Source: a virus (taxonomy: Duplodnaviria > Caudoviricetes). Taken from it: DNA of 41,066 nucleotides. A program made the translations under genes and the position numbers. Of this stretch, positions 1-41,066 are shown piece by piece (the stretch's first letter is position 1; every line of letters starts with the position of its first letter). Location of the stretch: positions 1-41,066 of IMG/VR virus record IMGVR_UViG_3300014201_000006. One strand, 5' to 3'. The notes beneath the pieces were generated by a model, which did not search any database, had not been told where the DNA came from, and was given only the letters and a program-made list of their open reading frames with translations.

Positions 1-123
1 ACAGGATGGCCTTTCGCTTTAGAAATACCATGCTCTTGCTGAGATTTAATAGCTTCGGTTGTGTCTTCGTAAGTTCCTACAGCTCCAGCACCTTCGGCTG
101 AACTTTCAGCTTTATGCTTTACA
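1..123. repeat. 123-bp direct repeat identical to 40944-41066 (circular assembly overlap)
   Basis: Bases 1-123 match 40944-41066; the junction lies inside an ORF that reads through it. Confidence 0.97.
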
Positions 124-197
124 CCTTCTGGAAATACGGAACCTTTAGAGCGACCGCCAATCCAGCTAGAATGATCGTTAATTTTACGTCCTGACAT
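1..197 (-). CDS. small protein downstream of portal (72 aa, spans the circular junction, stop at 40922-40924)
   Basis: ATG at 197 with AGGAG RBS; MSGRKINDHSSWIGG...KGHPVKNNYRN* once the ends are joined. Confidence 0.75.
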   Translation of the reverse strand, partial: MSGRKINDHSSWIGGRSKGSVFPEGVKHKAESSAEGAGAVGTYEDTTEAIKSQQEHGISKAKGHP

Positions 198-277
198 ATA
201 TTTCTCCTGAGCCATTAGGCTCGTTTTAGTGTCATTACTTCTCTGTAGCATTATAAACGAATTCTATCAAGAATTCA

Positions 278-2410
278 TTACATATTTTGCGCTTGCTGCT
301 CTTGATCGCCTTCTTGTCCTTGTCCACCCATACCCGCAAGCATTTGAGCTACAAAGTCATTGGACAAGCTTGTTCTCTTAGCATCCTCTTTGGCTAGATC
401 TTCCTTTGTTTGTTCTTGATTATCTAAAGAATCAATATCATTCATCTTAAGGTGTGCCTCCAATTCCCCATAACGATGCGCCACCTCGACCAGCTTCTCT
501 AAAGCTTCTGTTTTGGCTTTTGTAGAAAGCGCGTTATTTTTCCCTATCATACTTAAACGCTCTTCAAAGAGGCCAATATTACTTTCAGCCCTTCCATGCC
601 GCTCACGTGCATTGGCTATATTTAACGCAGCTTTAGAATAGAGTTCTTTAAGTTTGCCCTCTTCAACAGCATGTTCAAGATGCATACTATGCTCTTGAGC
701 AGCAGCTTCTTTTTGTTGTTGTTGTTCGAGAATCTTAATGACTTCGGCTTTTCCGGTGATATTGAGTTTAGGTATGATCATTGCAGGACTGAATATCTCT
801 TTTCCAAAGCGCTCGTTCATCTCAATCATTTGCTGTGCTTGAAGGTTCTGTTGTGTCGGAGTCAAATCGCTTTCCTCTACAATCGAATTGTACTTTGCAA
901 AGACCTTAGAATAGAAATAGGGAGAAGGTTCTTCACCGATTAACATGCCGACTTTCTCGGCACTCCAGTTATTTAGAACCACCTGTAATAACCTGTCTCC
1001 CAGAGTCTTTAACGATTGGTCCCACTGATCGAAATACTTCTGGAATACCATCAGGTTAGCGGCTTGCTTCAGCATCACGGTTAGGCTTGAAGTCTGTTTA
1101 TCTTCTTGGGCGGACCAGTTCTCTAGGTTAATACCTGAAGTCTTATACATCAGATCTTCCATCTGTTGCGCTAGGGCGAGATCAGATTCAGGGACCGCAG
1201 TTGGTATGATCTTCTCGCAGTCAGTCATCTCGAAGCCGTCATTGATAATGACATCCCATCCTTGTCCGGACTTCTTGAGGTTATCTTCATTGGCTACAGC
1301 ACCAACTTTGCGCTTCCATCCATTGTTGATGGTCGCTACGGCTATATCGTTGTTATTTATTACCTTGCTGTTGAACAAGAACTGAGAGGACCGCATGGTT
1401 CGGATAAGGCCGCGCACGCGTAAATCATAGTAGTTAATATGAGGTTCATAATTCCATAATACTGGAACAAAAGGGCAGCCGTCAAAGCCGAGTGGGTTCT
1501 CGCCTTGGAACATCAATTGATCGTTCAAAACAGTGCATAATTTCCATGTAGGAACTTCAACTGTGACCTCTTCAAGATCGGGAATGTTCTGTATTAAAGC
1601 ATCCATATTCCCATCGCCGCCAGCGAAGTCGAAGAATTGATTTCTGGATCTGCTATAAAGGCGTTTCTTCTTGCGTTTCCATTTATACCAAACGTATGAA
1701 AGGACCATCAAGTCATTGCGTGCCATATTGTAGTTTTCTGGCAGGAAGTAGAAATTACCATATCTTTGTGGTGTTCCAGACATCGGCATAATTGAAACTT
1801 TTTTGTCAGGAAATCGTGCTTCTGCCTCACGCTTTGTTATATATTCTTGGCACCAGACAAACTGGCTGTCTTCGAACGTTAATGACCTAGCGTATGGATC
1901 ACAGAGGAAAGAGTTGTATTCCCACAATTTGACTTTCAGCTCTCCCTGAGCCTGATCATCTCCAGTATAATCAAGATAGGGCTGTAATAGAACCATACCC
2001 GTAATGGCCGATTGTTCGCACGCCCTTGAGAACTGTTCGTGGATATGATTAGTATTAGCTACGTGTGTAATTAGCTTCGTGTATTGATCAGTCGTCTGAG
2101 CGTCCGAGCCTTCCGATGGAACATAACTAAAATTCTTGCGATGCTGTCTTTGATAACCAGTCAGCATGTTTATAGGTTGCTGACATATATTAAAGTAAAA
2201 ATTACTGTTGCTTGTGGTGTTTTGGCCAGTATTAAAGTAGCGATTTAAAAACTGCTGCTCGCCTGCATAGAAAAGTGTGTCGATGTTCCCTTGATTCCAT
2301 CTCGACTGTTCCACGGGCATGAACTTCGAGCTAAGATTGTCGAGCCATTGCCTTACATTGCCTTGATTGGGCTCAATATCGTTATTCCAAGGCGGATAAT
2401 AAAAGGTCAC
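278..2410 (-). CDS. portal protein, P22/podovirus-like
   Basis: 710 aa, downstream of terL; motifs 'FNICQQPINMLTGYQRQ', 'PFVPV...RGLIRTMRSSQ..FN'; Gln-rich coiled-coil C-terminus. Confidence 0.9.
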   Translation of the reverse strand: MTFYYPPWNNDIEPNQGNVRQWLDNLSSKFMPVEQSRWNQGNIDTLFYAGEQQFLNRYFNTGQNTTSNSNFYFNICQQPINMLTGYQRQHRKNFSYVPSEGSDAQTTDQYTKLITHVANTNHIHEQFSRACEQSAITGMVLLQPYLDYTGDDQAQGELKVKLWEYNSFLCDPYARSLTFEDSQFVWCQEYITKREAEARFPDKKVSIMPMSGTPQRYGNFYFLPENYNMARNDLMVLSYVWYKWKRKKKRLYSRSRNQFFDFAGGDGNMDALIQNIPDLEEVTVEVPTWKLCTVLNDQLMFQGENPLGFDGCPFVPVLWNYEPHINYYDLRVRGLIRTMRSSQFLFNSKVINNNDIAVATINNGWKRKVGAVANEDNLKKSGQGWDVIINDGFEMTDCEKIIPTAVPESDLALAQQMEDLMYKTSGINLENWSAQEDKQTSSLTVMLKQAANLMVFQKYFDQWDQSLKTLGDRLLQVVLNNWSAEKVGMLIGEEPSPYFYSKVFAKYNSIVEESDLTPTQQNLQAQQMIEMNERFGKEIFSPAMIIPKLNITGKAEVIKILEQQQQKEAAAQEHSMHLEHAVEEGKLKELYSKAALNIANARERHGRAESNIGLFEERLSMIGKNNALSTKAKTEALEKLVEVAHRYGELEAHLKMNDIDSLDNQEQTKEDLAKEDAKRTSLSNDFVAQMLAGMGGQGQEGDQEQQAQNM

Positions 2411-2412
2411 CG

Positions 2413-2474
2413 AGCCCCCTTAATGACATGAAGGTTTAAAATTTCACCTTACATTAAGGGCTTAAAAGGGTCAA
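2413..2474 (-). promoter_or_regulatory. sigma70-type promoter (TTGACC-17-TAAGGT) overlapping a hairpin that sequesters the portal RBS
   Basis: -35 at 2469-2474, -10 at 2446-2451; spacer CCCTTAATG pairs with CATTAAGGG, which covers the RBS. Confidence 0.7.
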
Positions 2475-2480
2475 TAGTGG

Positions 2481-2786
2481 TTAAATTGCCAATAACAATT
2501 GATTAGGATTGTGTTTTCTTACACGCCAATGAAACTTTAAATGCTGAGATGGAGTTAGCATCAAAAGATTAGAAATCTCGTTGTTTGAGGGATCATCGTC
2601 TCTGTGATGGATGTCCATACCCGGAAGAACCTCTCCAAAGTATATCATCCATACCCAACGGTGAGCATATAAACCGCTGTCGGTTGTACAAACCCAGTAA
2701 CCGTCTTTTCTTTCAAAGAACTTTTTGCCGAAATAGACTTGATAAGCTTTCATATCAAACAACTTTGCCATTATTTGATATAACAT
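2481..2786 (-). CDS. HNH endonuclease (HNH_3-like)
   Basis: 'YAHRWVW...DIHHRDDDPSNNEISNL.....SQHLKFH' HNH signature. Confidence 0.85.
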   Translation of the reverse strand: MLYQIMAKLFDMKAYQVYFGKKFFERKDGYWVCTTDSGLYAHRWVWMIYFGEVLPGMDIHHRDDDPSNNEISNLLMLTPSQHLKFHWRVRKHNPNQLLLAI

Positions 2787-3032
2787 TCAACCAGATTTGT
2801 ATTTCATCCTATCTCGTTCTATTTCTAAAAAAGCCAAAAGACTTGGCAATGAAGTTTGTAAAGTAAATTGAAGATCTCTGGGATTTAGCTTCATTTCTTG
2901 AACCTTAAAAAGAATAGTCTTAATCGTAGCTATTGTAAAATTAATATCATATTTTCTACCATCTATCTGGCTCTGAATGTGGTCCGGGTTGTTTTTGTTT
3001 ATTTCAACAAGAAATTTGTCTTCTTTAATCAT
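2787..3032 (-). CDS. hypothetical protein
   Basis: 81 aa, translationally coupled to terL (TAATG). Confidence 0.6.
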   Translation of the reverse strand: MIKEDKFLVEINKNNPDHIQSQIDGRKYDINFTIATIKTILFKVQEMKLNPRDLQFTLQTSLPSLLAFLEIERDRMKYKSG

Positions 3033-4315
3033 TAAAAATTACTCCTAAATCTATCTCTCATATATTGATTCGGATCATGTTTGTAAGGCTGATACTTGCT
3101 TACCTTATGGGTTAAGGCATATCGAAGTGCGTCAAGCGCGTGGTCATTTTGCTTCAGCGGCGCATCCTCGCCCTTCTCAGCCTTCTTCTTATCCCAAACA
3201 TACTGTTCGATCTCGTCGATCAACACATCGCATTCCTGACAGACAAACAAGTTTCCCTGCGCCATTTCAGAGGTCATATGAGTAATACCACTCAACACCT
3301 CATTATCAGCGTCAATTGTGGCTATGCCTCGTTTCCGAAGTTCCACTTTAAAAGAAGCAGCACTAGGGTCGATATACACGCCGCGTAAAGTATAAGGGGC
3401 TAAAAACTCCTCGATGTCTTTAGCATACTCCGCATTTGTTTTCTGTCTTCCCTTTTTACCAGAATCCCAGACGTACTCTTTTTCTACCCAGCGGCACACC
3501 CCTTGTTGAGTAGCATGACCAGTATTAACACCGACCAGCACACACGCAAAGTTGTTAGTAACGCCATAATCTATACCCGCAATCCAGTATTCTGCAGCAC
3601 GAGGGGGGCGTTTTACAACATGAATCTTTCTATCAAAGAAGTCGAAGATGGCACCTTCTGCAAGACACCATAGACCTAGATAATTCCTCTTATAGAATAG
3701 GCCGGATAAGCTCTCACGGACCATCCTTTTATACTCTTCATCGACGTATGGATTATGTTCTAGTGTAAATTTTAATTCGTAATATAATGGGTCGTTTGCG
3801 ATGGCTTTATCTATCCACTGCTTTATCTTGTGAGTCGGATGCGAGGGGTTGCAAGAACAGAACAATTGAGAATGGGGATTAGATAGCCGCGTATGAATCA
3901 TATCAATAATAGACTCAGGGTAAAGCGTAATCTCGTCGCAGTAAGCAAGCGAAAACGTCTTACCTTGTATAGCGCCGATAGCGCCTTCGTCCTTTGCGCC
4001 GACTGTCGAAATAGTCTTGTTACGAAACTTAAGCTCAGCCTTACCCGGGTGCCACGTGAGAAATGGTTGAAAGATGGCAAGAGGATTGTTCGGTGTATTG
4101 GACTCCATAAGTAAGCGGACCGCATTGTGGTAGATCGTAGAGGAAGAGTGGCCTATCATCCATATTTGGGAATCAGGACATGCGTCTACCGCTTGCATGA
4201 ATCTAAATAGTGTGCTAACAGTTTTACCAGAACGGACAGAGCCGTGGGCTATGTTGATTTTCTTAGTGGAGTCTAAGATGAACTCCATCTGCCTGGGGGC
4301 TAAAAGATTTTGCAT
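3032..4315 (-). CDS. terL: terminase large subunit (PBSX-like)
   Basis: Walker A 'GSVRSGKT', Walker B 'AYCDE', 'SCNP', RNase H-like 'AGIDYG' and 'NDHALDALRY'. Confidence 0.96.
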   Translation of the reverse strand: MQNLLAPRQMEFILDSTKKINIAHGSVRSGKTVSTLFRFMQAVDACPDSQIWMIGHSSSTIYHNAVRLLMESNTPNNPLAIFQPFLTWHPGKAELKFRNKTISTVGAKDEGAIGAIQGKTFSLAYCDEITLYPESIIDMIHTRLSNPHSQLFCSCNPSHPTHKIKQWIDKAIANDPLYYELKFTLEHNPYVDEEYKRMVRESLSGLFYKRNYLGLWCLAEGAIFDFFDRKIHVVKRPPRAAEYWIAGIDYGVTNNFACVLVGVNTGHATQQGVCRWVEKEYVWDSGKKGRQKTNAEYAKDIEEFLAPYTLRGVYIDPSAASFKVELRKRGIATIDADNEVLSGITHMTSEMAQGNLFVCQECDVLIDEIEQYVWDKKKAEKGEDAPLKQNDHALDALRYALTHKVSKYQPYKHDPNQYMRDRFRSNF

Positions 4316-5325: not shown

Positions 5326-6078
5326 ATGACAGCACCTTCAGCAATTCCAGTTTACACACAAGGATTCGGAACTTCATCCACTAACCCAACAATTATTGCA
5401 CAAGTAGCCCCCGGCAATTATTTGCCAGTTGGTATTAAACTTGGACAACATTGGATCAACGAAGCTGCTAATAACGTTTATGTTCTTACTTCAGTTTCAA
5501 CGTCTGCCGGAGTAACAACTCCTACTTGGACCTTATTAGAATCAGGGGCTTCATCTTTCCTATCATTAACTGGCGACACAGGAACTGCAACACCATCTTC
5601 TGGTAACGTGAAAATTGCTGGTACAGCAAACCAAATTACAACTGCTGCATCAGGATCTACAGTTACACTATCTATTCCATCTTCACCATCATTGCCGGGG
5701 ACTGTTACGGCCGCGACGGGGTTTACTGCAACAACAGGCAACTTTACCGCATCAGCTGCTGGAGCAGGTATAGTTTTAAACTCAGGAACTGCTTCAGGAA
5801 CAACAACAGCAACTTTGAATGGTAGATCTGGCCAAGTAACAATTACAACTCCAACTATAAATGCAGGAGCAACATTTTCATTTGCACTGACCAATAGTTC
5901 AATTACAGCGTCTACAACCCAAGTTCTTTATGGTCTGACTGGCGGAACAACTGGTTCAGCTATCACAATCCAAAGTGTGACCAATAGTGCGTCAACATCA
6001 ACCATTGTAATACAGAATGCTTCTGCTGTAACCAATAGTACTGGATCGCTGGTTCTCACATTTTTAGTCCTTAACTAA
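5326..6078 (+). CDS. tail fibre/spike-associated structural protein
   Basis: Thr/Ser/Gly-rich; 'SLTGDTGTATPSSGNVKIAG' module shared with 7180 and 10594. Confidence 0.7.
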   Translation: MTAPSAIPVYTQGFGTSSTNPTIIAQVAPGNYLPVGIKLGQHWINEAANNVYVLTSVSTSAGVTTPTWTLLESGASSFLSLTGDTGTATPSSGNVKIAGTANQITTAASGSTVTLSIPSSPSLPGTVTAATGFTATTGNFTASAAGAGIVLNSGTASGTTTATLNGRSGQVTITTPTINAGATFSFALTNSSITASTTQVLYGLTGGTTGSAITIQSVTNSASTSTIVIQNASAVTNSTGSLVLTFLVLN

Positions 6079-6087
6079 GGATGCTCA

Positions 6088-6423
6088 ATGGCCAATGTTC
6101 AAACGGTATCAATAGATCCTATTAGAGTATTAGCCGAAGCAAGCATCGGTGCAACTTACGTTGCATTTGGTACGCCATTTACAAACCCGGTCCGCCTTAT
6201 TGTCGTCGCAAACAATACTGACGGCGACATGTACATTTCTGATGATGGCGTTAACAATAAAATGTTTGTAGGTGCTGGCGTTACTAGAGTATTGGACTTA
6301 AATACCAACAGACTAGCAAATGACAAATATTGGGCATTCCCAAACAACACACAATTCTACATCAAGTACATCACAATGCCAACAAAAGGAGCTGTCTACC
6401 TTGAAGCTTATTGGGGGCAGTGA
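6088..6423 (+). CDS. small virion-associated hypothetical protein
   Basis: 111 aa, beta-rich, within the tail cluster. Confidence 0.6.
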   Translation: MANVQTVSIDPIRVLAEASIGATYVAFGTPFTNPVRLIVVANNTDGDMYISDDGVNNKMFVGAGVTRVLDLNTNRLANDKYWAFPNNTQFYIKYITMPTKGAVYLEAYWGQ

Positions 6424-7064
6424 TGCAAGATGTACGAGTAACAGCTACTATTCATGCAATAGAATCCCGAGTAGATTCTTTTAGGCGCGAAGTAGACGCA
6501 ATAAATCATTATATTAACGTATTCAAAACACAGATTGAAGAACTGTACAGCAAGCCAAATGTACCAGTTGAGTTTGCAGAATTCAAAAGAACTGCAGAAT
6601 CTTTTTTCAAAGAAGTCGGCGACAAATTTTCTACTAATAAGTTACTAGTAGACGGTATTAGAGGTGTATTAGAAATGCTTAAAAGTGCCGTGTCACATCA
6701 CGACATTTTGATCAATCAAGTACGCGACACAATACCATTTATTGAACAGCGTATCACAGACACAAGCGACACACTATCACAGAAAATTGTATCCATTACG
6801 ACAGCATTTTCTAATAAGTACGATGCACATGCAGACAGGCAAAAGAAGCAACTTGAAGATTTTAGTATGCACGCTTTAGCGGCTCCTAAATCTGTCATCG
6901 AAACCAACAAATCTATATCAGACAAAATTGATATTGCACTACTCGAATCATCAAACGCCATAGCTAAAATGTGCAATCTGGAACAGACACTAAAGATGCT
7001 CGATAGAAAGTTAGATGGCCTTGCAATACAGGTAAAAAAAGTAGAACTAGCACAACAGGGATAG
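6423..7064 (+). CDS. coiled-coil hypothetical protein
   Basis: ATG 6423 overlaps the previous TGA; heptad-like helical sequence. Confidence 0.65.
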   Translation: MQDVRVTATIHAIESRVDSFRREVDAINHYINVFKTQIEELYSKPNVPVEFAEFKRTAESFFKEVGDKFSTNKLLVDGIRGVLEMLKSAVSHHDILINQVRDTIPFIEQRITDTSDTLSQKIVSITTAFSNKYDAHADRQKKQLEDFSMHALAAPKSVIETNKSISDKIDIALLESSNAIAKMCNLEQTLKMLDRKLDGLAIQVKKVELAQQG

Positions 7065-7068
7065 GTGC

Positions 7069-8922
7069 ATTATTTCTCATATTGAAGTTACAGACCTTGT
7101 AAACAATACACCTTCAATTCCTACAGAGTTCATAACGAATAGCGGTACTGCCGTACCTATTGCAAATACACTTTATATATTGGGTGAATCAGTTGCAGCA
7201 GATGGTATTCCTGTACAAACAACAGGCGCAACAGACGTTGTTACAATAAAAGTACAACAAGCATCTGCACAAGCATCATCCAGCGCAACAAATGCAGGAC
7301 TTGCATCATTTAATAGTGCAGATTTTAGTGTCGATGCAAATGGGTATGTAACATTTACTGGCAGTGGTGCAACAGAGACTTTGACAGGCAATAGCGGTGG
7401 TGCAGTAGGACCTGCGGCTGGTAACATTAATACAGTTGGTACAGGTTCAATAACCGTTGTAGGAAATCCCGGTACTAATACAACCACAGTACAGCTAACA
7501 GGACTTACTAACCATGATGTATTAGTAGGGGCTGGCACAGCAACTATAACCAGCGTTAGTCCATCAACTGCTGGCTTTGTACTTACATCAAACGGTGTTG
7601 CGGCTGATCCATCGTTTCAAGCAGTAACTGCATCAGGTGCAGTAACAACCGTTACAGGAAATTCCGGTGGTGCTGAAGTGCCACTTGCAGGAAACTTTAA
7701 CATACTTGGCACAGGAAGTATCACAGTTGCTGGTAGTGCTAATACAGAGACGGTACAACTTACTGGACTTACTAACCATGCATTACAGGTCGGAGCTGGT
7801 ACAGCGACACTTACTCAACTTGGTGCTGGCACAACTGGTCAAGTGCTACAAACTAATACCGGAGCTGATCCTACTTGGAGCAGTGCAACCTATCCATCTA
7901 CAACGACTATCAATGACGTTCTTTATAGTTCTGCAAACAACGTCGTAGGTCAAGTCACAGCTGCAAATAACGGCGTCTTCATATCAGGAACTACAGGGGT
8001 TCCATCATGGCTTGCTGCTGGCACTACGGGGCAAGTCTTAACTGCTACAACAGGCTCACCTGCAACTTGGGCAAGTCCGGCAACATCCGGAACTGTAACA
8101 TCTGTATCCGTAGTAAGCGCAAATGGTTTTGCAGGAACTGTTGCAACTGCTACTACTACTCCAGCAATTACTCTGACAACCACGCAAACAGGACTCTTAT
8201 CAGGTAACGGTACTGCTGTTACTGGCACAGCAATTACACAGTACAATGTACTCACAGCAGGAGCATCTAATGCACCAAATAGCGTAGCACCAAGCGCTAC
8301 AAGCGGCGTGCCACTTATTAGCCAAGGTGCTGCATCGCAACCTGTATTTGGTACATCGGTAGTAGCGGGTGGTGGTACAGCAGCGACAAGTTTTAATACA
8401 ACAGGCGTTGTCATATCCGGTGCAACATCTACAACAGCATTAAGTGCTATCACACTAACTGATGGTCAGCTTGCAATAGGAAGCAGTGCGGGCAATCCAG
8501 CCGCAGCAACACTTACTGCGGGCACTGGAGTAACCATCACGAACGGGCATAATTCGATTACGATTTCATCGAGCAGCGCGGGTTTTACTTGGAATGATGT
8601 AACAACCACTCCTACGACAATGGCCGCTGAAAACGGGTACATTGCCGATAGCTCTTCTTTTTTACAATTTGTTTTACCAACTAACAATAGTCTTGGCGAT
8701 ACGATTAAGGTCGTTGGAAAAGGGACTGGTCTTTGGACTGTCATAACAAATGGAGCAAGCAGTTCATATATAAACTTCGGATCACTTTCATCTACCCCTA
8801 GTGTTGGATTTTTAACATCAACTAACGCCAATGACTGTATTGAGCTTGTTTGCACAACAGCTAGTGCATCTTCTCCTATTTGGACAGTTGTTAGCTCAAT
8901 CGGGAATATACAGGTGGGTTAA
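7069..8922 (+). CDS. tail fibre protein (start uncertain; frame open from 7051, ORF track starts at TTG 7180)
   Basis: Repeated 'LTGNSGGA..P.AGN.N..GTGSITV.G' and 'LTGLTNH..VGAGTAT' modules; the upstream in-frame segment 'PSIPTEFITNSGTAVPIANTLYILG' resembles the same module family. Confidence 0.8.
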   Translation: MISHIEVTDLVNNTPSIPTEFITNSGTAVPIANTLYILGESVAADGIPVQTTGATDVVTIKVQQASAQASSSATNAGLASFNSADFSVDANGYVTFTGSGATETLTGNSGGAVGPAAGNINTVGTGSITVVGNPGTNTTTVQLTGLTNHDVLVGAGTATITSVSPSTAGFVLTSNGVAADPSFQAVTASGAVTTVTGNSGGAEVPLAGNFNILGTGSITVAGSANTETVQLTGLTNHALQVGAGTATLTQLGAGTTGQVLQTNTGADPTWSSATYPSTTTINDVLYSSANNVVGQVTAANNGVFISGTTGVPSWLAAGTTGQVLTATTGSPATWASPATSGTVTSVSVVSANGFAGTVATATTTPAITLTTTQTGLLSGNGTAVTGTAITQYNVLTAGASNAPNSVAPSATSGVPLISQGAASQPVFGTSVVAGGGTAATSFNTTGVVISGATSTTALSAITLTDGQLAIGSSAGNPAAATLTAGTGVTITNGHNSITISSSSAGFTWNDVTTTPTTMAAENGYIADSSSFLQFVLPTNNSLGDTIKVVGKGTGLWTVITNGASSSYINFGSLSSTPSVGFLTSTNANDCIELVCTTASASSPIWTVVSSIGNIQVG

Positions 8923-8923
8923 T

Positions 8924-9553
8924 ATGGCAAACTATAACAACGCAGCAGATCTTCAGTTAACACGTTATAATGTAATAACAGGCGGCGCAAGTAACGTAAT
9001 TAATAACGTTGCACCGAGCGCAACATCTGGCATTCCCTTAGTTAGCAATGGAAGCTCATCCCAACCAAGTTTTACAACTGCGGTAGTTGCTGGCGGTGGA
9101 ACTGGCAATACAACCTTTACAGCTTATTCAGTTATCTGTGCTGGCACAACTGCAACAGGAGCTTTTCAAAACGTATCAGGAGTTGGATCGTCAGGACAAG
9201 TCCTCACTTCGAATGGCGCATCGGCACTTCCGACTTGGCAAGCTGCATCGATGCCTGCATTAACAATCACCACCGTCGCTCATGCAGCATCACCCTATAC
9301 AGTTCTAGCAGCCGATCAATTTCTAGCCGTCAACGTCTCAGGTGGCGCGGTCACTATCAAGCTTCCAAACGCTCCGACAACTGGCCGTGTCATCTACGTC
9401 AAAGACTCAACAGGAGCTGCTGCAACTAGCAATATAAGCGTAACAACGGTCGGTGGCACTGTCACGATTGACGGCCAAACGACTTACACGATGGCGACAA
9501 ATTATCAATCATTAAGCCTTATCTTCGACGGCTCAAATTATGAGGTGTTCTAA
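8924..9553 (+). CDS. tail fibre/spike protein
   Basis: Probable start MANYNN at 8924; shares 'APSATSG.PL.S.G..SQP.F.T.VVAGGGT' with 7180; C-terminal 'TIKLPNAPTTGRVIYVKD...LIFDGSNY' spike-type beta domain. Confidence 0.75.
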   Translation: MANYNNAADLQLTRYNVITGGASNVINNVAPSATSGIPLVSNGSSSQPSFTTAVVAGGGTGNTTFTAYSVICAGTTATGAFQNVSGVGSSGQVLTSNGASALPTWQAASMPALTITTVAHAASPYTVLAADQFLAVNVSGGAVTIKLPNAPTTGRVIYVKDSTGAAATSNISVTTVGGTVTIDGQTTYTMATNYQSLSLIFDGSNYEVF

Positions 9554-10587: not shown

Positions 10588-10593
10588 GGACAC

Positions 10594-12800: not shown

Positions 12801-12828
12801 GGCTAACGTAATAGCTATTATCAGACGA
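12801..12828 (-). other. dif-like XerC/XerD recombination site
   Basis: Minus strand TCGTCTGATAA-TAGCTA-TTACGTTAGCC: 11-6-11 layout with inner ATAA/TTA and a XerD-like arm (E. coli dif GGTGCGCATAA-TGTATA-TTATGTTAAAT); intergenic. Confidence 0.7.
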
Positions 12829-14522: not shown

Positions 14523-14689
14523 CCCTCTCCCTGTTTTATAACTTGATCTCTCAGCATAAACATCTCATCCATGAGCGCTTTTTTGCTTTTCTCTAGCTCT
14601 AATATCTGCTCGTCGAGCTCGTCTATTTTATCATAGACGCACTCTAAAAGCCTCTCTTCTTTAGTCATTGCCCATTTAGAGGAGTCCAT
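14519..14689 (-). CDS. small coiled-coil protein (56 aa)
   Basis: Overlapping start/stop codons with both neighbours. Confidence 0.5.
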   Translation of the reverse strand: MDSSKWAMTKEERLLECVYDKIDELDEQILELEKSKKALMDEMFMLRDQVIKQGEG

Positions 14690-26346: not shown

Positions 26347-26366
26347 CCATACAAAAGGAGATTAAT

Positions 26367-28821: not shown

Positions 28822-28822
28822 T

Positions 28823-31732: not shown

Positions 31733-31911
31733 TTGATTTTTTAGAAGTTAGAAAAATCTCACTAACCCCAGAAGAAGCCGAACAAATATCAAGATTAAAT
31801 ATTGGAGATCATTTTACATTTCGCTGTACAGAATATGTTTTAACCGAAATTAAAGATAAAGAACCGGTCTGGGCACTTTTACCTGAGATTAAGAATGACC
31901 ACAACAACTGA
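31729..31911 (+). CDS. hypothetical protein
   Basis: ATGA coupling. Confidence 0.45.
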   Translation: MIDFLEVRKISLTPEEAEQISRLNIGDHFTFRCTEYVLTEIKDKEPVWALLPEIKNDHNN

Positions 31912-32107
31912 ACTCCCCCTATGGACTTCATTTGACATTGCTAATCCTAAGCGAGGCGTAAATCTCATTATTAGGCTTAAAGATGGACGCGAATTAAAAG
32001 GTCAAAGTTGGCACACAGAGCTCATATTTGATGATGTTTTTTCCGATAAAATTGAAGGCGGACATTATGATCTTCAGATTCAGTCTACCCATTGGAAGTA
32101 CGCATGA
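31895..32107 (+). CDS. hypothetical protein
   Basis: Coupled to the next gene. Confidence 0.5.
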   Translation: MTTTTELPLWTSFDIANPKRGVNLIIRLKDGRELKGQSWHTELIFDDVFSDKIEGGHYDLQIQSTHWKYA

Positions 32108-32586
32108 CCACAACAACTAACCTCCAATTCTCACCCTATCTAAAGACCCAGTGGCAGTTTCCTAACGAGGATGTACGCGGTCTAGCTACCCAAATTGACA
32201 TCTCATACATCGACATCTCATCTAAGGTTAACGCCCGAACCATCGGAACATTTGCCACTAACTTTCCTCTAGTAACAGGAGAGCGCTGGTATCTCTCAGG
32301 ATCGTCCACAGGACAACAGACTTTGCGTCAGGTCTATCCTTTTACTGCTGCGGGTAATATAGCGCATGGGTTAAACTTCGCTGCCATAACCACGTTTACG
32401 AGGATCTATGGCGTATTTACAGATGGGAGTATCTATTATCCGCTGCCATATGTTGATGTTGTGGCTGCGAACAATCAGGTCAATGTGGTCGTTAATAGCG
32501 CGAATATTGTCGTGACTGCGGGAGGAGGAACTCCTCCAAGCATAACGAGTGGGTATGTTGTGCTGGAGTGGTTAAGCCAATTCTAA
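32104..32586 (+). CDS. tail accessory structural protein
   Basis: 'LRQVYPF...IAHGL...FTRIYG...YVVLEW'. Confidence 0.65.
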   Translation: MTTTTNLQFSPYLKTQWQFPNEDVRGLATQIDISYIDISSKVNARTIGTFATNFPLVTGERWYLSGSSTGQQTLRQVYPFTAAGNIAHGLNFAAITTFTRIYGVFTDGSIYYPLPYVDVVAANNQVNVVVNSANIVVTAGGGTPPSITSGYVVLEWLSQF

Positions 32587-32841: not shown

Positions 32842-32901
32842 TGCACAGAAAATCGACATATCCTGAAAACATGCACAAAAAATACGGAAATATCGACATA
32901 T

Positions 32902-32973
32902 CGCTCAATGAAGGAATCGAACCTTCGACACCCAAATTAACAGTTTGATGCTCTACCGCTGAGCTAATTGAGC
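32902..32973 (-). tRNA. trnN: tRNA-Asn(GTT), CCA not encoded
   Basis: GCTCAAT/ATTGAGC acceptor, TAGCTCAGCGGTAGAGC D arm, loop CTGTTAA, GGTTCGATTCC T arm. Confidence 0.93.
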
Positions 32974-32980
32974 AAAAAAA

Positions 32981-33104
32981 GAGCGAGGTCTATCCAGTTG
33001 CCTTTGTCTACAGGTCAGTAACATTTAGGGTTTTTAAGCCCAGTGCGCCTGCACGCTTGAGGGCCAACCTCACGGCTCCCTTCCTGGTTTACCAGACCTC
33101 ACTC
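32981..33104 (-). ncRNA. unassigned multi-stem structured RNA between two tRNAs
   Basis: 11-bp closing stem GAGTGAGGTCT/AGACCTCGCTC, several internal hairpins, followed by T7. Confidence 0.65.
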
Positions 33105-33107
33105 AAA

Positions 33108-33180
33108 TGCCGTCGCTAGGATTCGAACCCAGGACCTTCAAGTTACAAACATGTTGCTCTGCCAACTGAGCTACGACGGC
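33108..33180 (-). tRNA. trnT: tRNA-Thr(TGT) with mismatched anticodon stem
   Basis: GCCGTCG/CGACGGC acceptor, canonical D and T arms, loop TTTGTAA. Confidence 0.88.
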
Positions 33181-33792: not shown

Positions 33793-34377
33793 ATGTCTGT
33801 ACCAGCTCTATCTAGAAACCAAGGCTCTACAGGAAACAAGATCCCAAAAGGCTATTCTTCAGGGCGGCTTCAACAATTTACTCCAGAACAAGTCGATGTT
33901 TTCAAAAATCAGATGTCTTTCGTGTCACCCGGGAGTCAGTTATCTCAAATGGCCCAAGGGAATGACTTAGGCTTTGCGCCCCATGAGGATTACGCTAGAC
34001 GGCAGTTTCAAGAAGCCACAAGCGGATTAGCTTCACAGTTCAGCGGTCTTGGTATGGGAGCTAGGCGTGGTAGCGGATTCCAGAATCAGGCTACACAAGG
34101 GGCTCAGGACTTCGCTAGTATGTTAGCTAGGCAGCGTCAGGGACTACAAAGACAGGCTTTAGGAGATTTGATGGGCCTGAGCAATTCAATTCTTGGTCAA
34201 AGACCTTATGAACAATTCCTTACTAAACAAGAACAGCCATTCTGGAAACAGCTATTGCTAGGAGCGACAAGTGGAGTATCTAATGCGGCTGGTTCGTTGT
34301 TTGGGGGTCTAATGCCTTGGAATAAACAACAGCAGCCACAACAGCAATCGGGCGGATTTCAGCCTGCCAGTTATTAG
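33793..34377 (+). CDS. DNA ejection/pilot protein
   Basis: Gln/Gly/Ala-rich, hydrophobic Gly-rich C-terminus; position after the nozzle. Confidence 0.65.
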   Translation: MSVPALSRNQGSTGNKIPKGYSSGRLQQFTPEQVDVFKNQMSFVSPGSQLSQMAQGNDLGFAPHEDYARRQFQEATSGLASQFSGLGMGARRGSGFQNQATQGAQDFASMLARQRQGLQRQALGDLMGLSNSILGQRPYEQFLTKQEQPFWKQLLLGATSGVSNAAGSLFGGLMPWNKQQQPQQQSGGFQPASY

Positions 34378-34386
34378 GAGATTAAT

Positions 34387-35673
34387 ATGGTTCAAATATT
34401 AGAGAACAATCCTACATTTAGCCAACAACTTGGAAGAGCTTTAGGCGAGCAAACTGGCAAGTTCGCATCGAACTTCGCTGAGGATATGGCACTAAAGAAA
34501 AGAGGTGTCGATGTTGCTGGACTTACTGGATATGCGCGGGATGTTGCAATTAAGGAAGGCATCAAACGTGCGGCGTTGATAGAACAGGGCAGACGCACAC
34601 TTGGACCGCAAGGCGGCACAGCTCAAACTCAAGGTTCCAAGGCCATTCAACCCACACAGGCCGCACAACCTGCCGCTGGTGCAATGCCTACCTCAAGACA
34701 GCCATCTTCACAGCGTCCTCAAGGCGGAACATCTAAGATTATAATCCCTCCTGAACAGATCGAAGCAGAGGCCGCACGCAGAGGAACTGAAAAGCTTAAT
34801 AGAGGCGTACCAACAGATCTACAAAGCGAAATTGCGCTTATCCAACAAGAGAATGCCAATGTCTCCCAATATCAAGGATATCAAAAAACCATTGGCGATC
34901 AGGCTGAAGCAGAATTGGGGAAAGTCTATAAAAGAGCAACCCCCGAAGAATCGGCCTATTTCCGAAGAAAAGGCGAAGGACTTGCAACACAGGGACTATC
35001 TCAAGCTCAAATTGATAGAGAGCTGGCACGCGATGCGCGTAATTTCACTAATCAGCTTAAAAAACTAGATGAGACTCCCGGCGCTAGAGCTCGCCATAAA
35101 GTAGGACAAGCTTTTAAAGGAACAGGAAGAACAGACGAACAGCGTCGCAGAGAGATTCAAGCGGCTGCAAAACCTCTTTTAGATGAAGGTCTTTACGAAT
35201 CTGTTCGCAATCGCTTGCATAGCAATGGTTATGGACCAGAAGAAACCGAGTCTTTGATCTCAGATTTGAGTGAGCAAGCTAAAAAAAGCTTGAGCGATTT
35301 TAATGCACCTGCTGCACCGAAAGACAAAAACTTCAAATATAAATACAAAGAAGGTAAGAAAGAGGCTTTACAAGCCACACAAGATCCTACCTATAGAACA
35401 TATGCCAACAATCCACAGGGCCAGCAAGAATTTGCTCAAAATCTACAAAAGACCTTGCAGAGCGATCCTAACACTAATCTGCTTCTCTTGCGCAAGGCAT
35501 ACGAAGACAAGGGCGTAGATTGGAATACATTTAAGCAGGAATTCGATAGTCTTTTAGAGAGTGGACAAATCCAATTGAACGACGACCAAATGAATATGAG
35601 CGAATATCTGCAAGAGCCTCCTTTGGATAGATTGGACAAGCTTTTAGCCGACTTTAACTTCATAGGTAGATAA
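34387..35673 (+). CDS. internal virion/ejection protein
   Basis: Helical, Gln/Ala-rich; second of three coupled genes. Confidence 0.6.
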   Translation: MVQILENNPTFSQQLGRALGEQTGKFASNFAEDMALKKRGVDVAGLTGYARDVAIKEGIKRAALIEQGRRTLGPQGGTAQTQGSKAIQPTQAAQPAAGAMPTSRQPSSQRPQGGTSKIIIPPEQIEAEAARRGTEKLNRGVPTDLQSEIALIQQENANVSQYQGYQKTIGDQAEAELGKVYKRATPEESAYFRRKGEGLATQGLSQAQIDRELARDARNFTNQLKKLDETPGARARHKVGQAFKGTGRTDEQRRREIQAAAKPLLDEGLYESVRNRLHSNGYGPEETESLISDLSEQAKKSLSDFNAPAAPKDKNFKYKYKEGKKEALQATQDPTYRTYANNPQGQQEFAQNLQKTLQSDPNTNLLLLRKAYEDKGVDWNTFKQEFDSLLESGQIQLNDDQMNMSEYLQEPPLDRLDKLLADFNFIGR

Positions 35674-36908
35674 TGGCTATCGGCGCATTAGTTGGAAGCT
35701 GGACAGCAAAGACAATTGTAAAACAGATTGCTAAGAAGTTTCCCAAATTCGCTCCATATATTGACAAGGCTGAAAAAGCCGGATTCTTGGCTCCTTCGAT
35801 ATTGAAATCATTAATGGGTAAAGAAGCCCAATATCAAACAGAACAGGCCACTAGATCTGAAGATAGGAAGAAAACTAAGCGGAACTATGCTCTAGCGGCT
35901 TTAGGGCTAGTTGGAGGCGCAGGACTAGGCGCAGCCAAGCTCGCAGGCCGAGGGGCCGCAGCAGCCACACAAGCAGGTCAGCAGCCTATTCTTGGAACGA
36001 CTGGACCTACAGCGCCTAATGTTCCACCGGCCGGAGGTGGCGGGGGCGGTCCGTCCGGTGGAGGATCGCCACTTCCTGTCGCTCCAAATGTTCAAAGAAC
36101 TAACCTTCAAACTGGGGTGACAGAAAACTTACCGAAAGATGTCACAGGTCATCAAAACTATCCTGCTTTTAGAAACTTTGTCCAGAAACACGCTCAAGCT
36201 GGCCATAGCCCTGAAGAAATCGAATCAATAGCTAAACAGTCTAATGCCTTCTCCAATGTGGTTCAAGATATTGAAAAAAATACAGGCAAGCCCTTAGTTG
36301 AGGGTATTAGAATGATTACGGGTGGTTCTAAACCAGCAGCGACTCAAGGAGTCCCAACACAGGCGACTTCTCAACCAAAAGTTGTAGAAAAGGGAATAAT
36401 CGTTAATACTCCGATGGGTCCGGGCGAAGTTCATAAAACACATGGCGACAATGCCTATGTTGAAATTAACGGAAAGCTCAAAAAAGTTCCGTTGTCTGAA
36501 GCAGAACCTCCATCTCAAGATATGGTAAATGTTGTAAACGACCTTCTTAAAATACCTGAAGTTGACCGTTCTTCTAATGTAGCTGCTTTCGGATATAATC
36601 CAGAAAGACAATTGCTTATTATGCAATTCCATGATGGGAAATTTTACACATATCACAATGTTACACCTGATATTATCGAAAGTCTAAAAAACAAAGATGC
36701 TACTCCAGTAACGTCTGGAGAGAATCAATTCGGCGCATGGAACCCAGACGATCCACATGGATCTCTTGGGGCTGCTTTGGATCAGTTTATTAAAAAAGAT
36801 CCTAGATGGAAAAAAGCAGGTAAGGGACAGCCTCCAAATCCTAATTACTTTAATTATGAAACTGGTTATGATTACTGGCATCAATTAAGACGAAAGAGAA
36901 AGAAATGA
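35673..36908 (+). CDS. putative ejection protein with KOW/SH3-like and KTSC domains
   Basis: 'SSNVAAFGYNPERQLLIMQFHDGKFYTYHNVTPDIIESL' KTSC signature. Confidence 0.7.
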   Translation: MAIGALVGSWTAKTIVKQIAKKFPKFAPYIDKAEKAGFLAPSILKSLMGKEAQYQTEQATRSEDRKKTKRNYALAALGLVGGAGLGAAKLAGRGAAAATQAGQQPILGTTGPTAPNVPPAGGGGGGPSGGGSPLPVAPNVQRTNLQTGVTENLPKDVTGHQNYPAFRNFVQKHAQAGHSPEEIESIAKQSNAFSNVVQDIEKNTGKPLVEGIRMITGGSKPAATQGVPTQATSQPKVVEKGIIVNTPMGPGEVHKTHGDNAYVEINGKLKKVPLSEAEPPSQDMVNVVNDLLKIPEVDRSSNVAAFGYNPERQLLIMQFHDGKFYTYHNVTPDIIESLKNKDATPVTSGENQFGAWNPDDPHGSLGAALDQFIKKDPRWKKAGKGQPPNPNYFNYETGYDYWHQLRRKRKK

Positions 36909-37188: not shown

Positions 37189-37422
37189 TCAATTGCCTAT
37201 CGATCTCTGATATTCTGCTTCGATCTCTTCATAAGTTGTCGTCGGTTGCGATTCGATCATCTTCTGCGCCTCCATCTGGGCAATATAGTTTCTCAGCATC
37301 ATGTTCTCATTCTGAAGGTGTGCAGCAATAGTTTGTTCATTTTTAAGAGCTATATTGGCATCAATTAAATTAGATGCTTTCATGCCGAGCCAAAGTGCTC
37401 CAAGTTCTAGTAATGTGCTCAT
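37189..37422 (-). CDS. hypothetical protein
   Basis: GAGGAG RBS before MSTLLELG. Confidence 0.55.
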   Translation of the reverse strand: MSTLLELGALWLGMKASNLIDANIALKNEQTIAAHLQNENMMLRNYIAQMEAQKMIESQPTTTYEEIEAEYQRSIGN

Positions 37423-37423
37423 G

Positions 37424-37729
37424 TTATTTCTCCTCTTTGTTTTCATTAACTTTCACTGTTTTATAATTATCATTCATATATTGCTTAGGAATCATTTTTA
37501 TCTTTATAATATTGTGTATGTTTACACATGTTCCAATAAAAAGCAAAGGAACTACTATACACGATACAAACCAAACAACTTGATGAAAAGCTGGCCTATC
37601 ATAAGATCTTTCATATTGAATATTTAAAAGCTTGACCGACCAAAACACTAGACCGCCTATCAAAATAATGCTGCCTATTACACTGAGATAAGCGATCAGG
37701 TTGTCAAACTTAAGAATATCTTCATCCAT
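37424..37729 (-). CDS. two-TM membrane protein
   Basis: Two hydrophobic helices. Confidence 0.6.
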   Translation of the reverse strand: MDEDILKFDNLIAYLSVIGSIILIGGLVFWSVKLLNIQYERSYDRPAFHQVVWFVSCIVVPLLFIGTCVNIHNIIKIKMIPKQYMNDNYKTVKVNENKEEK

Positions 37730-37940
37730 TTTGAGTTTTCTCCTCTGTAGTTTGTATTTTAGCCAATTCTTTTGGCAAATGGCCTTGCGCCATTAAAACA
37801 GCCTTTACTACAGCAAGGTCTTTTTCGATGGCAGCAAAACGATTGCTTACATCGCTGAATTTATGATTCATCCATAAAATTGAAGTAACAATACCTCCGA
37901 TAACAATAACTGTGTCTACATGTTTTTTAACAAAGTTCAT
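37722..37940 (-). CDS. single-TM + coiled-coil small protein
   Basis: 'KKHVDTVIVIGGIVTSILWMN...IEKDLAVVKAVL'. Confidence 0.65.
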   Translation of the reverse strand: MNFVKKHVDTVIVIGGIVTSILWMNHKFSDVSNRFAAIEKDLAVVKAVLMAQGHLPKELAKIQTTEEKTQNG

Positions 37941-38141: not shown

Positions 38142-38822
38142 CTAAAGACGTAATCTTCCCTTTAATTCCTGCATCTTTTCGTAAGCATTTTTTTGACCAG
38201 ACGCACTAAAATCCCCAGCAGCGGCATAAGGCGCAGCCCCTACCCCTGAAGGCTGGTAGTAAGGACTTCTTTTATTAGCGTCAATTTTTTCCTGTATAGA
38301 AGCTTGCTTCTGCTCGGGCTTATCAACGCCAAGGGCCTTTATGTTCTCATAGACGAGCTTATTCCTTTCAAAGCCCTCTGGCATCCTTAAGATGTTTTCA
38401 GCAAGCCTTGGGTGCTTCTGCGCAAACCGCTCAATCGTATCAGCACTCATCACAGTCTCAAAATCAGCATTCTCTCTAAGATAGCTATGCTTTCTCTCAA
38501 TCTCAATCATAGCAGCGGCCTTAGCCTCTGCTTTCTGATCAATCGTTTGCTCTATTTTGCTTTGAAACTTGTGCAGTTCTTTATTAAGTTTTCGACGATC
38601 GACATAAGGCTCATCGTCTTCCTTATCGTCTTCATCATCGGGATCGGCTCGCCGCGCTCGTTCTTGAGCAGCTCTTTCAGCTGCAATAGCTCTCTCTTCG
38701 GCTTGCTGTCTTGCGAGGCGTTCTTGTTCAAGTTGTCGTTCGTACATCTTACGTTGCTTTGAAAGATTGCTTTCAATGGTATCATTCTTAGCTTCCTGTG
38801 TTTGTGTTTGATCTTCTGACAT
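38142..38822 (-). CDS. capsid scaffolding protein (probable)
   Basis: Highly charged coiled coil with an acidic patch; same strand as and downstream of portal; AAGGA RBS before ATG 38822. Confidence 0.7.
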   Translation of the reverse strand: MSEDQTQTQEAKNDTIESNLSKQRKMYERQLEQERLARQQAEERAIAAERAAQERARRADPDDEDDKEDDEPYVDRRKLNKELHKFQSKIEQTIDQKAEAKAAAMIEIERKHSYLRENADFETVMSADTIERFAQKHPRLAENILRMPEGFERNKLVYENIKALGVDKPEQKQASIQEKIDANKRSPYYQPSGVGAAPYAAAGDFSASGQKNAYEKMQELKGRLRL

Positions 38823-38900
38823 GGTTATCCTTTTTGCTCTTGACGCTGAGCCGCGGTTGGATATATTGTCATGTAACATAATAAAATATTGAGGGCAAGT

Positions 38901-39763: not shown

Positions 39764-40259
39764 CGCTCACGACCGTTATTCCTACTACAAGAATCAAGAT
39801 TTTGACATTGGCATCTGCTGCCAGAATCTTATCGACCAGCGTCCATTTGGAGATCATGCGTTCTATATCTTCGCTCACGCACGCACATTGGGACTTGATG
39901 AAAAGATCAAGCTCTATTCTTCTGGAAAATACGAAACGCTCGACAAAGTTCCTGAGAAAACTCTAATATGGCAGCCTAGACTTACAAAGCCCAAGGCTCA
40001 GACTAACTCGATGCTATTCAAGGCTTATCCCGGAACAGACAACATCAAGATCATTTGGATCATTCCTCCTAGAGAGATGTGGGATCAATACAAGAAAGGC
40101 AATATGACGGAGAATGAGACGATCTGCATTAGCATCCATGACTTTGAGCATAATAGGGATCAATTGGAAGCTAAAGAGCCAGATGACCTATCCGATGGGG
40201 CAATAGACAAGATTTACGAAGAAATAAGCAGAGAAGCAAGGAAGGGTAAGAATGTTTGA
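39744..40259 (+). CDS. hypothetical protein
   Basis: 171 aa, globular composition. Confidence 0.7.
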   Translation: MKVTRSDAHDRYSYYKNQDFDIGICCQNLIDQRPFGDHAFYIFAHARTLGLDEKIKLYSSGKYETLDKVPEKTLIWQPRLTKPKAQTNSMLFKAYPGTDNIKIIWIIPPREMWDQYKKGNMTENETICISIHDFEHNRDQLEAKEPDDLSDGAIDKIYEEISREARKGKNV

Positions 40260-40318
40260 AGAAACTGAGGAAATCTTAAAGAGGATTTTCAAGTTTATAG
40301 AGTTTCACTTGGGAAAAC

Positions 40319-40492
40319 CTATGCCAAGCTCTTAGGGGGCTTTTGGAGCTTCTTCGGAGCCACAGGATTCTCCCCCGGCGAATAAACCTGACGAATCTTG
40401 CCCATCTTAGCTGGGATAGCACGACCATAAAAGTCACCCATGCCGTGCTTAGTGTTAGCAGTATGGGCTTGTTTAACTCTCGATTTCTTCAT
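40319..40492 (-). CDS. small basic protein (57 aa) of the portal operon
   Basis: MKKSRVKQAHTANTKHGMGDFYG...KPPKSLA*. Confidence 0.6.
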   Translation of the reverse strand: MKKSRVKQAHTANTKHGMGDFYGRAIPAKMGKIRQVYSPGENPVAPKKLQKPPKSLA

Positions 40493-40624
40493 GGTCAACC
40501 TTTTTGATTTCTATTTTTTTTAGACAATGAGGGCATTGTTTAACCAATGGAAGATCTCCGTCAATAAATCTAAATACTTCATCACATTCTGGGCAAATGG
40601 TTGTGATGACCTTGAGTGCTGTCA

Positions 40625-40867
40625 TTATACTTCGTCAATTCTCATTGTATTGACGCGACCCATAGGCAGGCTTGGAGATGAAGTTTTAGGATTGCCTTCA
40701 TGGCCAACAGGTTGTTTATGGCCTACACCATGAATAGTACCAGCATTCATAAAACAGCTCGATCTTTCATCATAAACTGGAGCATTAAAGTTCCAGAAAT
40801 TTTTAATCGTTGAGTGCTTTTCTTCTTTGACTGGATCTTTAAAGCTAGTTTTCATGGTTTTTTTCAT
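40625..40867 (-). CDS. small protein of the portal operon
   Basis: TAGG RBS, 80 aa. Confidence 0.65.
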   Translation of the reverse strand: MKKTMKTSFKDPVKEEKHSTIKNFWNFNAPVYDERSSCFMNAGTIHGVGHKQPVGHEGNPKTSSPSLPMGRVNTMRIDEV

Positions 40868-40943
40868 AGTTATACCTACTTATGATGGGTTATACTCAAT
40901 TTCAGGCATAACCCAGTTAACTTAGTTTCTGTAGTTGTTCTTA

Positions 40944-41066
40944 ACAGGATGGCCTTTCGCTTTAGAAATACCATGCTCTTGCTGAGATTTAATAGCTTCG
41001 GTTGTGTCTTCGTAAGTTCCTACAGCTCCAGCACCTTCGGCTGAACTTTCAGCTTTATGCTTTACA
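40944..41066. repeat. second copy of the terminal 123-bp overlap
   Basis: Identical to 1-123. Confidence 0.97.

What the first reader, a model, noticed from the sequence alone, without database searches (positions are those of the whole stretch)
1..41066. Complete podovirus-like genome whose likely host is an environmental Chlamydiota bacterium
Seen: a circular genome with a full tailed-phage gene set, an inverse-autotransporter-type barrel, several TM+coiled-coil microproteins (e.g. 37722 'KKHVDTVIVIGGI..SILWMN') and no recognisable peptidoglycan hydrolase. Recollection, not searched: I associate such barrels and this microprotein type with Parachlamydiales/Rhabdochlamydia-like genomes. Known: the characterised chlamydial phages are ssDNA Microviridae, so a tailed dsDNA phage reaching an obligate intracellular host would be notable.
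Basis: inference. Interest (0 to 1): 0.75.

Follow-up and report, generated by a model that had tools for sequence, protein, structure and literature searches.

The report
Lysin-less tailed phage of environmental chlamydiae
This complete 41-kb tailed-phage genome has no recognisable integrase or cell-wall-cutting enzyme but carries a copy of the chromosome-unlinking site (dif) of the type chlamydiae use, so it likely infects environmental chlamydiae (less likely Babelota), bacteria that live inside other cells and whose characterised phages are tiny single-stranded ones.

Summary
In detail: a closed 40,943-bp podovirus-type genome with no integrase and no recognisable peptidoglycan hydrolase.

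The best host evidence is an intergenic dif-like site at 12801-12828. Its motif occurs in 141 of 151 Chlamydiota genomes and 31 of 50 close phage relatives. Exact matches: 0 of 151 Pseudomonadota, 0 of 81 Bacteroidota. A distant, syntenic, integrase-less relative sits between a dif and a degenerate dif in a chlamydial chromosome.

A rival remains. A small-genome phylum, probably Babelota, shares the motif (23 of 71). The window's own site scores closer to it, though 21 of 31 clade sites score chlamydial. No prophage of the close clade was found, no spacer was tested, and k-mer tests were indecisive.

Odds: Chlamydiota about 0.65, Babelota about 0.22. Host XerCD acting on the site is inferred; Legionella phage LME-1 is a precedent. 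Ten paper searches found no described tailed chlamydial phage. This scan reached the same idea earlier on other DNA (e1-10428789, e1-10053963).

The parts
12801..12828 (-). dif-like site (11-6-11), intergenic; candidate attP or dimer-resolution site for host XerC/XerD
   Evidence: Single match of GTCTGATAA-N6-TTAYGTT in the window; no ORF over it; motif in 141 of 151 Chlamydiota genomes and 31 of 50 relatives
278..2410 (-). Portal, P22-like
   Evidence: PF16510 E 1e-51; phrog_156
3032..4315 (-). Large terminase
   Evidence: Terminase_6N; phrog_2 E 4e-47
20442..20831 (+). Probable small terminase
   Evidence: phrog_309 E 1e-5
23134..24105 (+). Major capsid protein, N4-gp56 family
   Evidence: TIGR04387 over its cut-off; 1048 homologs
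24107..32586 (+). Conserved virion block: FCCH-domain proteins, adaptor (27032-28255), fibre-like protein (28255-28821), probable nozzle (28823-31732), with an endonuclease and a few small non-conserved ORFs inside
   Evidence: Core genes present in 14-18 of 18 whole relatives; weak SU10_adaptor and Gp53-like hits; nozzle assigned by size and position only
33793..36908 (+). Three probable ejection (core) proteins
   Evidence: Position after the nozzle; first one in 18 of 18 relatives; function inferred
38142..38879 (-). Probable scaffold protein
   Evidence: 18 of 18 relatives; lies before the capsid gene in relatives; function inferred
5326..11919 (+). Fibre cluster: seven genes, four of them Gly/Thr-rich fibres
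   Evidence: PHROG tail-fibre hits; the fibre read from 8921-9553 is 72% identical over 104 aa to a fibre on phage contig G264:C19, which lies in a Chlamydiota bin
13190..18807 (.). Recombination and replication module: RecT-like, exonuclease, HTH regulator, replication initiator, DnaC-like loader
19398..20213 (+). Predicted outer-membrane beta-barrel resembling the inverse-autotransporter barrel, without a passenger
   Evidence: Atlas 0.96 to PF11924 clusters; 3 of 18 relatives; weak hits in 21 of 401 Chlamydiota genomes
32901..33180 (-). tRNA-Asn(GTT) and tRNA-Thr(TGT)
   Evidence: ARAGORN; not compared with host tRNAs
37189..37940 (-). Three small membrane or coiled-coil proteins including 37722; possible hydrolase-free lysis cassette
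   Evidence: Weak Rz-like spanin hits for 37189 and 37722; 37722 homolog, 43% over 62 aa, on G264:C19; role inferred
1..123 (.). Terminal overlap identical to 40944-41066; closes the circle

Best explanation
The window is the complete genome of a podovirus-type phage that has no recognisable integrase or lysin and carries a dif-like site, and it likely infects an environmental Chlamydiota bacterium and likely uses that host's XerC/XerD enzymes at the site to integrate at the chromosomal dif. Shown: closed genome, virion genes, the site, its conservation across the clade, its match to the chlamydial dif, and a distant integrase-less relative lying between a dif and a degenerate dif in a chlamydial chromosome. 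Inferred: the host of this exact genome; Xer action on the site; entry into the eukaryotic cell while bound to or inside the bacterium; and release by membrane-acting proteins without a hydrolase, which would fit an envelope with little peptidoglycan (chlamydial envelope facts recalled, not from a call).
For: (1) The motif is in 141 of 151 Chlamydiota genomes, mostly once (<=1 mismatch; reversed control in 15 by my count). Kono 2011 (PMC3025954, supplement rows) lists GTCTGATAA in 14 of 14 Chlamydiae and in 5 other rows. (2) It is in 31 of 50 clade records at <=2 mismatches, 27 at <=1 and 11 exact; reversed control 8 of 50. (3) An unbiased IMG/VR scan for the motif returned 23 of 80 flanked loci from this lineage. 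(4) Positions outside the search pattern look chlamydial at clade level. AC at 1-2: phage 14/31, Chlamydiota 14/15, rival 2/15. AA at 25-26: 4/31, 0/15, 13/15. Profile calls: 21 Chlamydiota, 5 rival, 5 Nitrospirota of 31. (5) G297:C1 holds a 35.7-kb prophage between the genome's only exact motif match and a degenerate copy with the same spacer. No PF00589 hit on that contig, while two strong ones (presumably XerC/XerD) lie elsewhere. A flanking gene matched 3 of 3 Chlamydiota handles and 0 of 2 others. Eight profiles of window virion genes hit it, and 25 of its ORFs hit clade proteins, several non-structural ones at 36-56%. (6) Phage contig G264:C19 (Chlamydiota bin, exact motif) shares a 72%-identical fibre stretch and the 37722 family with the window. 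(7) A relative's DnaB scores 219/218 bits on two Chlamydiota genomes against 186/184/178 on three rival genomes. (8) No hydrolase family among 144 cluster representatives from 18 relatives.
Against: The window's own site scores better on the rival profile (-19.6 against -26.7), its two nearest host sites are rival ones, and its spacer equals that of rival genome G910. The sites of G430 and G415, among its closest relatives, also score rival-leaning or tied. The rival-phylum bin G004 holds two lineage contigs, and one shares about as many genes with the clade as the G297 prophage does (11 against 10 regions at >=40%). No integrated copy of the close clade was found among the 12 GTDB contigs. 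The portal tree does not resolve the G297 prophage with the window's clade. GC skew does not change sign across the G297 site in the pieces held. K-mer tests are split: 13 of 19 lean Chlamydiota with one metric and 7 of 19 with two others, and the unrelated control phage also leaned Chlamydiota in the first. 19 of 50 relatives lack the motif. The pattern was built from the G297 and window sites, so the window's own chance figure (0.01) is post hoc.
Confidence: 0.62

Rival explanations
1. The same kind of phage, but this genome infects a member of the small-genome intracellular phylum of G004, probably Babelota (Dependentiae); the label is my inference from genome sizes of 0.8-1.9 Mb and divergent nucleotide-transporter genes.
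For: Motif in 23 of 71 genomes at <=1 mismatch; transporter hits in G004; the window's site scores best on this profile and shares its spacer with G910; G004's bin holds a close-clade and a sister-clade contig, the latter with rival-like k-mers.
Against: Only 5 of 31 clade sites are called rival; 13 of 15 rival sites end in AA against 4 of 31 phage sites (Fisher p 2e-6); no motif in either G004 phage contig as held; the window, G413, G415 and G430 lean Chlamydiota in all three k-mer metrics, slightly; no prophage was sought in this phylum.
Confidence: 0.22
2. The host is chlamydial, but the site serves only to resolve dimers of a circular, non-integrated phage replicon through host XerCD, not to integrate.
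For: No close-clade prophage among the 12 GTDB contigs; many clade sites are near-perfect dif copies; 2 of 6 dif-poor relatives and 0 of 12 dif-bearing ones carry a small serine resolvase (Fisher p 0.10).
Against: The distant relative in G297 is integrated at the site; no partition genes in the window; many clade sites carry one degenerate arm position, as integrative dif mimics do (PMC9765430 passages).
Confidence: 0.3
3. The host is a free-living bacterium of an untested phylum with a similar dif arm (some Nitrospirota, Desulfobacterota, Acidobacteriota or PVC relatives), and its lysin is simply unrecognised.
For: Exact motif in 8 of 81 Nitrospirota genomes and in 5 non-chlamydial rows of Kono 2011; GC-rich viral contigs also carry it; only six phyla were tested.
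Against: All 8 Nitrospirota sites end in canonical AA; lineage loci with the motif are 34-44% GC; the one integrated relative found is chlamydial (where alone it was sought); no hydrolase family in 19 genomes.
Confidence: 0.12

Closest known systems
Legionella phage LME-1 (PMC12407071, PMC9765430; passages read)
   Same: Short-tailed temperate phage of an intracellular bacterium; carries a dif mimic and integrates at the host dif, leaving one intact and one modified site, as seen in G297.
   Different: Uses the single recombinase XerL and a different site. Sequences were not compared. Host and Xer use are shown for LME-1 and only inferred here.
Chlamydia-infecting Microviridae (Gokushovirinae; PMC4589997, abstract start only)
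   Same: Same predicted host phylum.
   Different: ssDNA of 4.5-5 kb without a tail; this is 41-kb dsDNA with portal, terminase and fibres.
IMEX such as CTXphi and TLCphi (PMC3025954 passages; PMC6744903 listing only)
   Same: No own integrase; a dif-like site.
   Different: Filamentous or satellite elements. No FtsK-gamma-like activator was found in the window; XafT itself was not searched.
P22-like podoviruses; Pseudoalteromonas phage vB_Pun_Y3; Ralstonia phages Gerry and Cimandef
   Same: Portal family PF16510; N4-gp56 capsid.
   Different: Only 24% identity. Y3 has an annotated lysozyme, holin and spanin-type gene; the window has no recognisable lysozyme or integrase.

Membership tests
Caudoviricetes, podovirus morphotype | Portal, large terminase and tailed-phage major capsid protein | tested here: met
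Caudoviricetes, podovirus morphotype | Short tail: adaptor and nozzle, no tape measure or sheath | tested here: inconclusive
   No tape-measure or sheath hit; adaptor hit weak (E 1e-3); nozzle by position only; no particle seen
Schitoviridae (N4-like) | Giant virion RNA polymerase and a genome of about 60-90 kb (feature recalled) | tested here: not met
   Longest ORF 969 aa, genome 41 kb
P22-like lambdoid phages | Tyrosine integrase and lysozyme-holin-spanin cassette (feature recalled) | tested here: not met
Chlamydia-infecting Microviridae | ssDNA genome of 4.5-5 kb | tested here: not met
   41-kb genome with terminase and portal
IMEX (integrative mobile element exploiting Xer) | dif mimic on the element | tested here: met
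IMEX (integrative mobile element exploiting Xer) | No recombinase of its own | tested here: met
   PF00589 absent; no resolvase hit
IMEX (integrative mobile element exploiting Xer) | Found integrated at the host dif | tested here: inconclusive
   True for the distant relative in G297; none for the close clade; no joint at the site in four runs held as contigs
IMEX (integrative mobile element exploiting Xer) | Integration depends on host XerC/XerD | not testable with these tools
   Needs a recombination assay
Inverse autotransporter (type Ve) | N-terminal beta-barrel | tested here: inconclusive
   Atlas 0.96; no Pfam hit; model unusable
Inverse autotransporter (type Ve) | C-terminal passenger domains | tested here: not met
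   271 aa in all, ending in a short Pro/Gln-rich tail

The most novel reading that the evidence does not exclude
A large, widespread, undescribed lineage of lysin-less tailed dsDNA phages (at least 206 close IMG/VR loci plus sister clades) infects Chlamydiota, perhaps also Babelota, inside their eukaryotic hosts. It integrates by borrowing host XerCD at dif, so each phage's 28-bp site names its host group and offers a natural route for DNA delivery into environmental chlamydiae.
Probability: 0.5. Interest if true: 0.85.

Novelty: new variant of a known kind. Interest (0 to 1): 0.7.

Why it matters
The chlamydial phages found in the papers searched are small ssDNA Microviridae; ten searches showed no described tailed phage of the phylum. 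The nearest statement is unclassified viruses predicted by iPHoP to infect Chlamydiales (PMC12644861, passage). A common temperate dsDNA phage would give these intracellular bacteria a route for gene exchange. It also raises two testable questions: how a tailed phage reaches a bacterium inside a eukaryotic cell, and how it exits without a hydrolase. The dif site is a host-prediction signal that works where CRISPR spacers are scarce. A tailed phage using dif in an intracellular bacterium is not a first: LME-1 does so.

Tried and rejected
- An E. coli-type dif consensus found nothing in the window; a candidate near 38871 has a poor left arm and was dropped.
- Microprotein 37722 as a chlamydial chromosomal family: 0 of 251 genomes; 6 other homologs, none with an informative name; nearest Atlas clusters are viral.
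- Barrel fold: the single-sequence model was unusable, so no fold search was run; no plasmid hit; 5 other homologs, uninformative names.
- The 113-kb contig L309 as a close prophage: it matches record G431 in permuted order, so it is probably a concatemer; its flanks could not be read.
- TAG recoding in G010:C2: the three stops lie in a short insertion in the portal and coding density barely changes.
- G073:C1 200-220 kb as a prophage remnant: it is ordinary chromosome (dnaB, gidA-like, sdh-like genes by my reading).
- FtsK-gamma miniprotein: none in the window; 2 sub-threshold hits in 50 relatives.
- Portal tree: quick search only, base unresolved.
- PDB searches: nothing for the capsid, weak portal hits, only an E1 FCCH-like domain for the nozzle.
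- Portal in plasmids: none. Replication initiator: only generic HTH hits.
- Cluster look-up of 10 capsid homologs gave no names.
- Runs with a word share under 0.2 were not used.
- Not done: CRISPR spacer search, tRNA-to-host comparison, barrel search in a control phylum, prophage search in the rival phylum.
Full report
Observation. The window is one circular phage genome. Its first and last 123 bases are identical, IMG/VR lists it as complete, and a frame reads across the join, giving 40,943 bp. Of 74 ORFs scanned, families were found for a P22-like portal, a large terminase, an N4-gp56 capsid, fibres, RecT, an exonuclease, a replication initiator, a DnaC-like loader and endonucleases. There are two tRNAs. 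No integrase and no peptidoglycan hydrolase family was found. The four runs that hold half or more of its words are wetland metagenomes, two of them possibly its source.

The clade. The capsid protein has 1048 homologs and 206 IMG/VR loci, of which the 80 kept are 81-93% identical. The only cultured hit is 24% identical. I read 18 relatives whole or nearly so. The virion core is shared by 14-18 of 18 and the replication module is not. Pfam on 144 cluster representatives that lack a window homolog gave no hydrolase and no tyrosine integrase, but two serine resolvases. A GTDB scan gave 12 contigs, all apparently free phage DNA, in bins named Bacteroidota, two archaea, Nitrospiraceae, Patescibacteria (2), Pseudomonadota, Flavobacteriaceae, two unnamed bacteria and two Chlamydiota. 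Binning alone therefore says little.

A chlamydial prophage relative. The portal matched 9 of 401 Chlamydiota genomes, 5 of them strongly but at only 24-33% identity. In G297 the match lies on a 137-kb contig among host genes (ribH, ribBA, an ABC transporter, htpX). A flanking gene matches 3 of 3 Chlamydiota handles and neither of two others, and the genome has strong nucleotide-transporter hits. Profiles of eight window virion genes hit this element. It is bounded by two 28-bp repeats 35.7 kb apart with the same 6-base centre. The left one is the genome's only exact motif match. The contig has no tyrosine recombinase, while two strong ones lie elsewhere. Twenty-five of its ORFs hit clade proteins, including regulators, YqaJ, a phosphoesterase and the terminase type used by three relatives. 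Against this: the portal tree leaves its position open, and GC skew shows no switch across the site.

The dif site. The left repeat of G297 shares 10 of 11 left-arm bases with an intergenic site in the window at 12801-12828. A pattern built from the two matched 141 of 151 Chlamydiota genomes, mostly once, and agrees with the published chlamydial dif (Kono 2011, PMC3025954, passages and supplement rows). It matched 31 of 50 clade records, against 8 of 50 for the reversed control, and most sites lie outside long ORFs. Controls: 0 of 151 Pseudomonadota, 0 of 81 Bacteroidota and 8 of 81 Nitrospirota exact; 5 of 81 Patescibacteria, all with one mismatch.

The rival. The phylum of G004 matched in 23 of 71 genomes, 3 of them exactly. 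Its small genomes and divergent transporters suggest Babelota; no call gave the name. I built profiles from 15 chlamydial, 15 rival and 8 Nitrospirota sites (leave-one-out 14/15, 11/15, 7/8). They of 31 clade sites chlamydial but call the window's own site rival. Loss of the terminal AA could be mere degeneration of a phage site; the shared AC at positions 1-2 (14 of 31) is a positive chlamydial signal. A relative's DnaB is closer to chlamydial DnaB. In about 400 kb per phylum, four clade proteins hit one chlamydial stretch and one hit a rival stretch. K-mer tests were indecisive and, for the likelihood test, tracked GC. The window shares a 72%-identical fibre stretch and 37722 with G264:C19, a 40.7-kb phage contig in a chlamydial bin, but it also shares fibre segments with G004:C5. 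The wider lineage may well span both phyla.

Mechanism. Most likely the phage binds a chlamydial cell, circularises its DNA, replicates with its initiator and loader, and lets host XerC/XerD act on the dif mimic. Integration is shown only for the distant relative; dimer resolution is the alternative use. Release without a hydrolase, through small membrane proteins, is inferred. The barrel could be a lysogen surface or exclusion protein; this is untested.

Comparison. It works like LME-1, a short-tailed Legionella phage that integrates at dif (PMC12407071, PMC9765430; passages). It is not an N4-like or P22-like family member by the recalled features tested, and not a Microvirus. Ten paper searches, seen as listings, showed no tailed Chlamydiota phage; PMC12644861 (passages) mentions unclassified viruses predicted for Chlamydiales, and its supplements, which I did not open, could hold relatives. 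PMC6561590 (passages) was read for Babelota background only. Subscription papers are outside the library. Earlier notes of this scan reached similar ideas on other DNA; they are not independent evidence.

Verdict. The host is probably Chlamydiota (about 0.65), otherwise Babelota (about 0.22); an intracellular host of either kind is about 0.87. New variant of a known kind; interest 0.7.

Noticed in passing
L085, L087-L093 (capsid genes): The capsid gene of many relatives is split at recurring positions, probably by introns; the window's is intact. Earlier scan notes describe group I introns here.
   Followed up: no
L403:17193-17882 (G416) and L421:15959-16525 (G420): Two relatives without a good dif site carry serine resolvases, a hint that the two systems replace each other (2 of 6 against 0 of 12, p 0.10).
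   Followed up: partly
L405:10357-11370 (G418): A relative encodes a U-box domain protein, a eukaryote-type domain that would fit a host living inside eukaryotic cells.
   Followed up: no
L404:863-1453 (G416); L397:9980-10801 (G431): Relatives carry another outer-membrane barrel and a GT92 glycosyltransferase that has a homolog in a chlamydial chromosome.
   Followed up: partly
window 24107-25733 and 28823-31732: A ubiquitin-E1 FCCH-like domain recurs in the virion proteins.
   Followed up: no
G297:C1 36000-42000 and 75700-78850: Accessory genes (Bro-N, RHS/CAP, paralogous pairs, a duplicated SocA/Panacea antitoxin) cluster on both sides of the prophage at dif.
   Followed up: no
L440 (G086:C52) and L456 (G910:C17): Host dif spacers nearest the window's: one base off in a chlamydial genome, identical in a rival-phylum genome; both whole sites differ from the window's at 7 of 28 positions.
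   Followed up: partly
G084, G060, G145, G154, G100, G026: Several Chlamydiota genomes have two exact motif matches on different contigs; these may be further dif-using elements.
   Followed up: no
window 33288-33710: ORF with a sigma-70 region-4-like domain beside the tRNAs.
   Followed up: no
L114 (G010:C2, portal): A short insertion with three stops near the start of a relative's portal gene; possibly an intron remnant, not recoding.
   Followed up: partly
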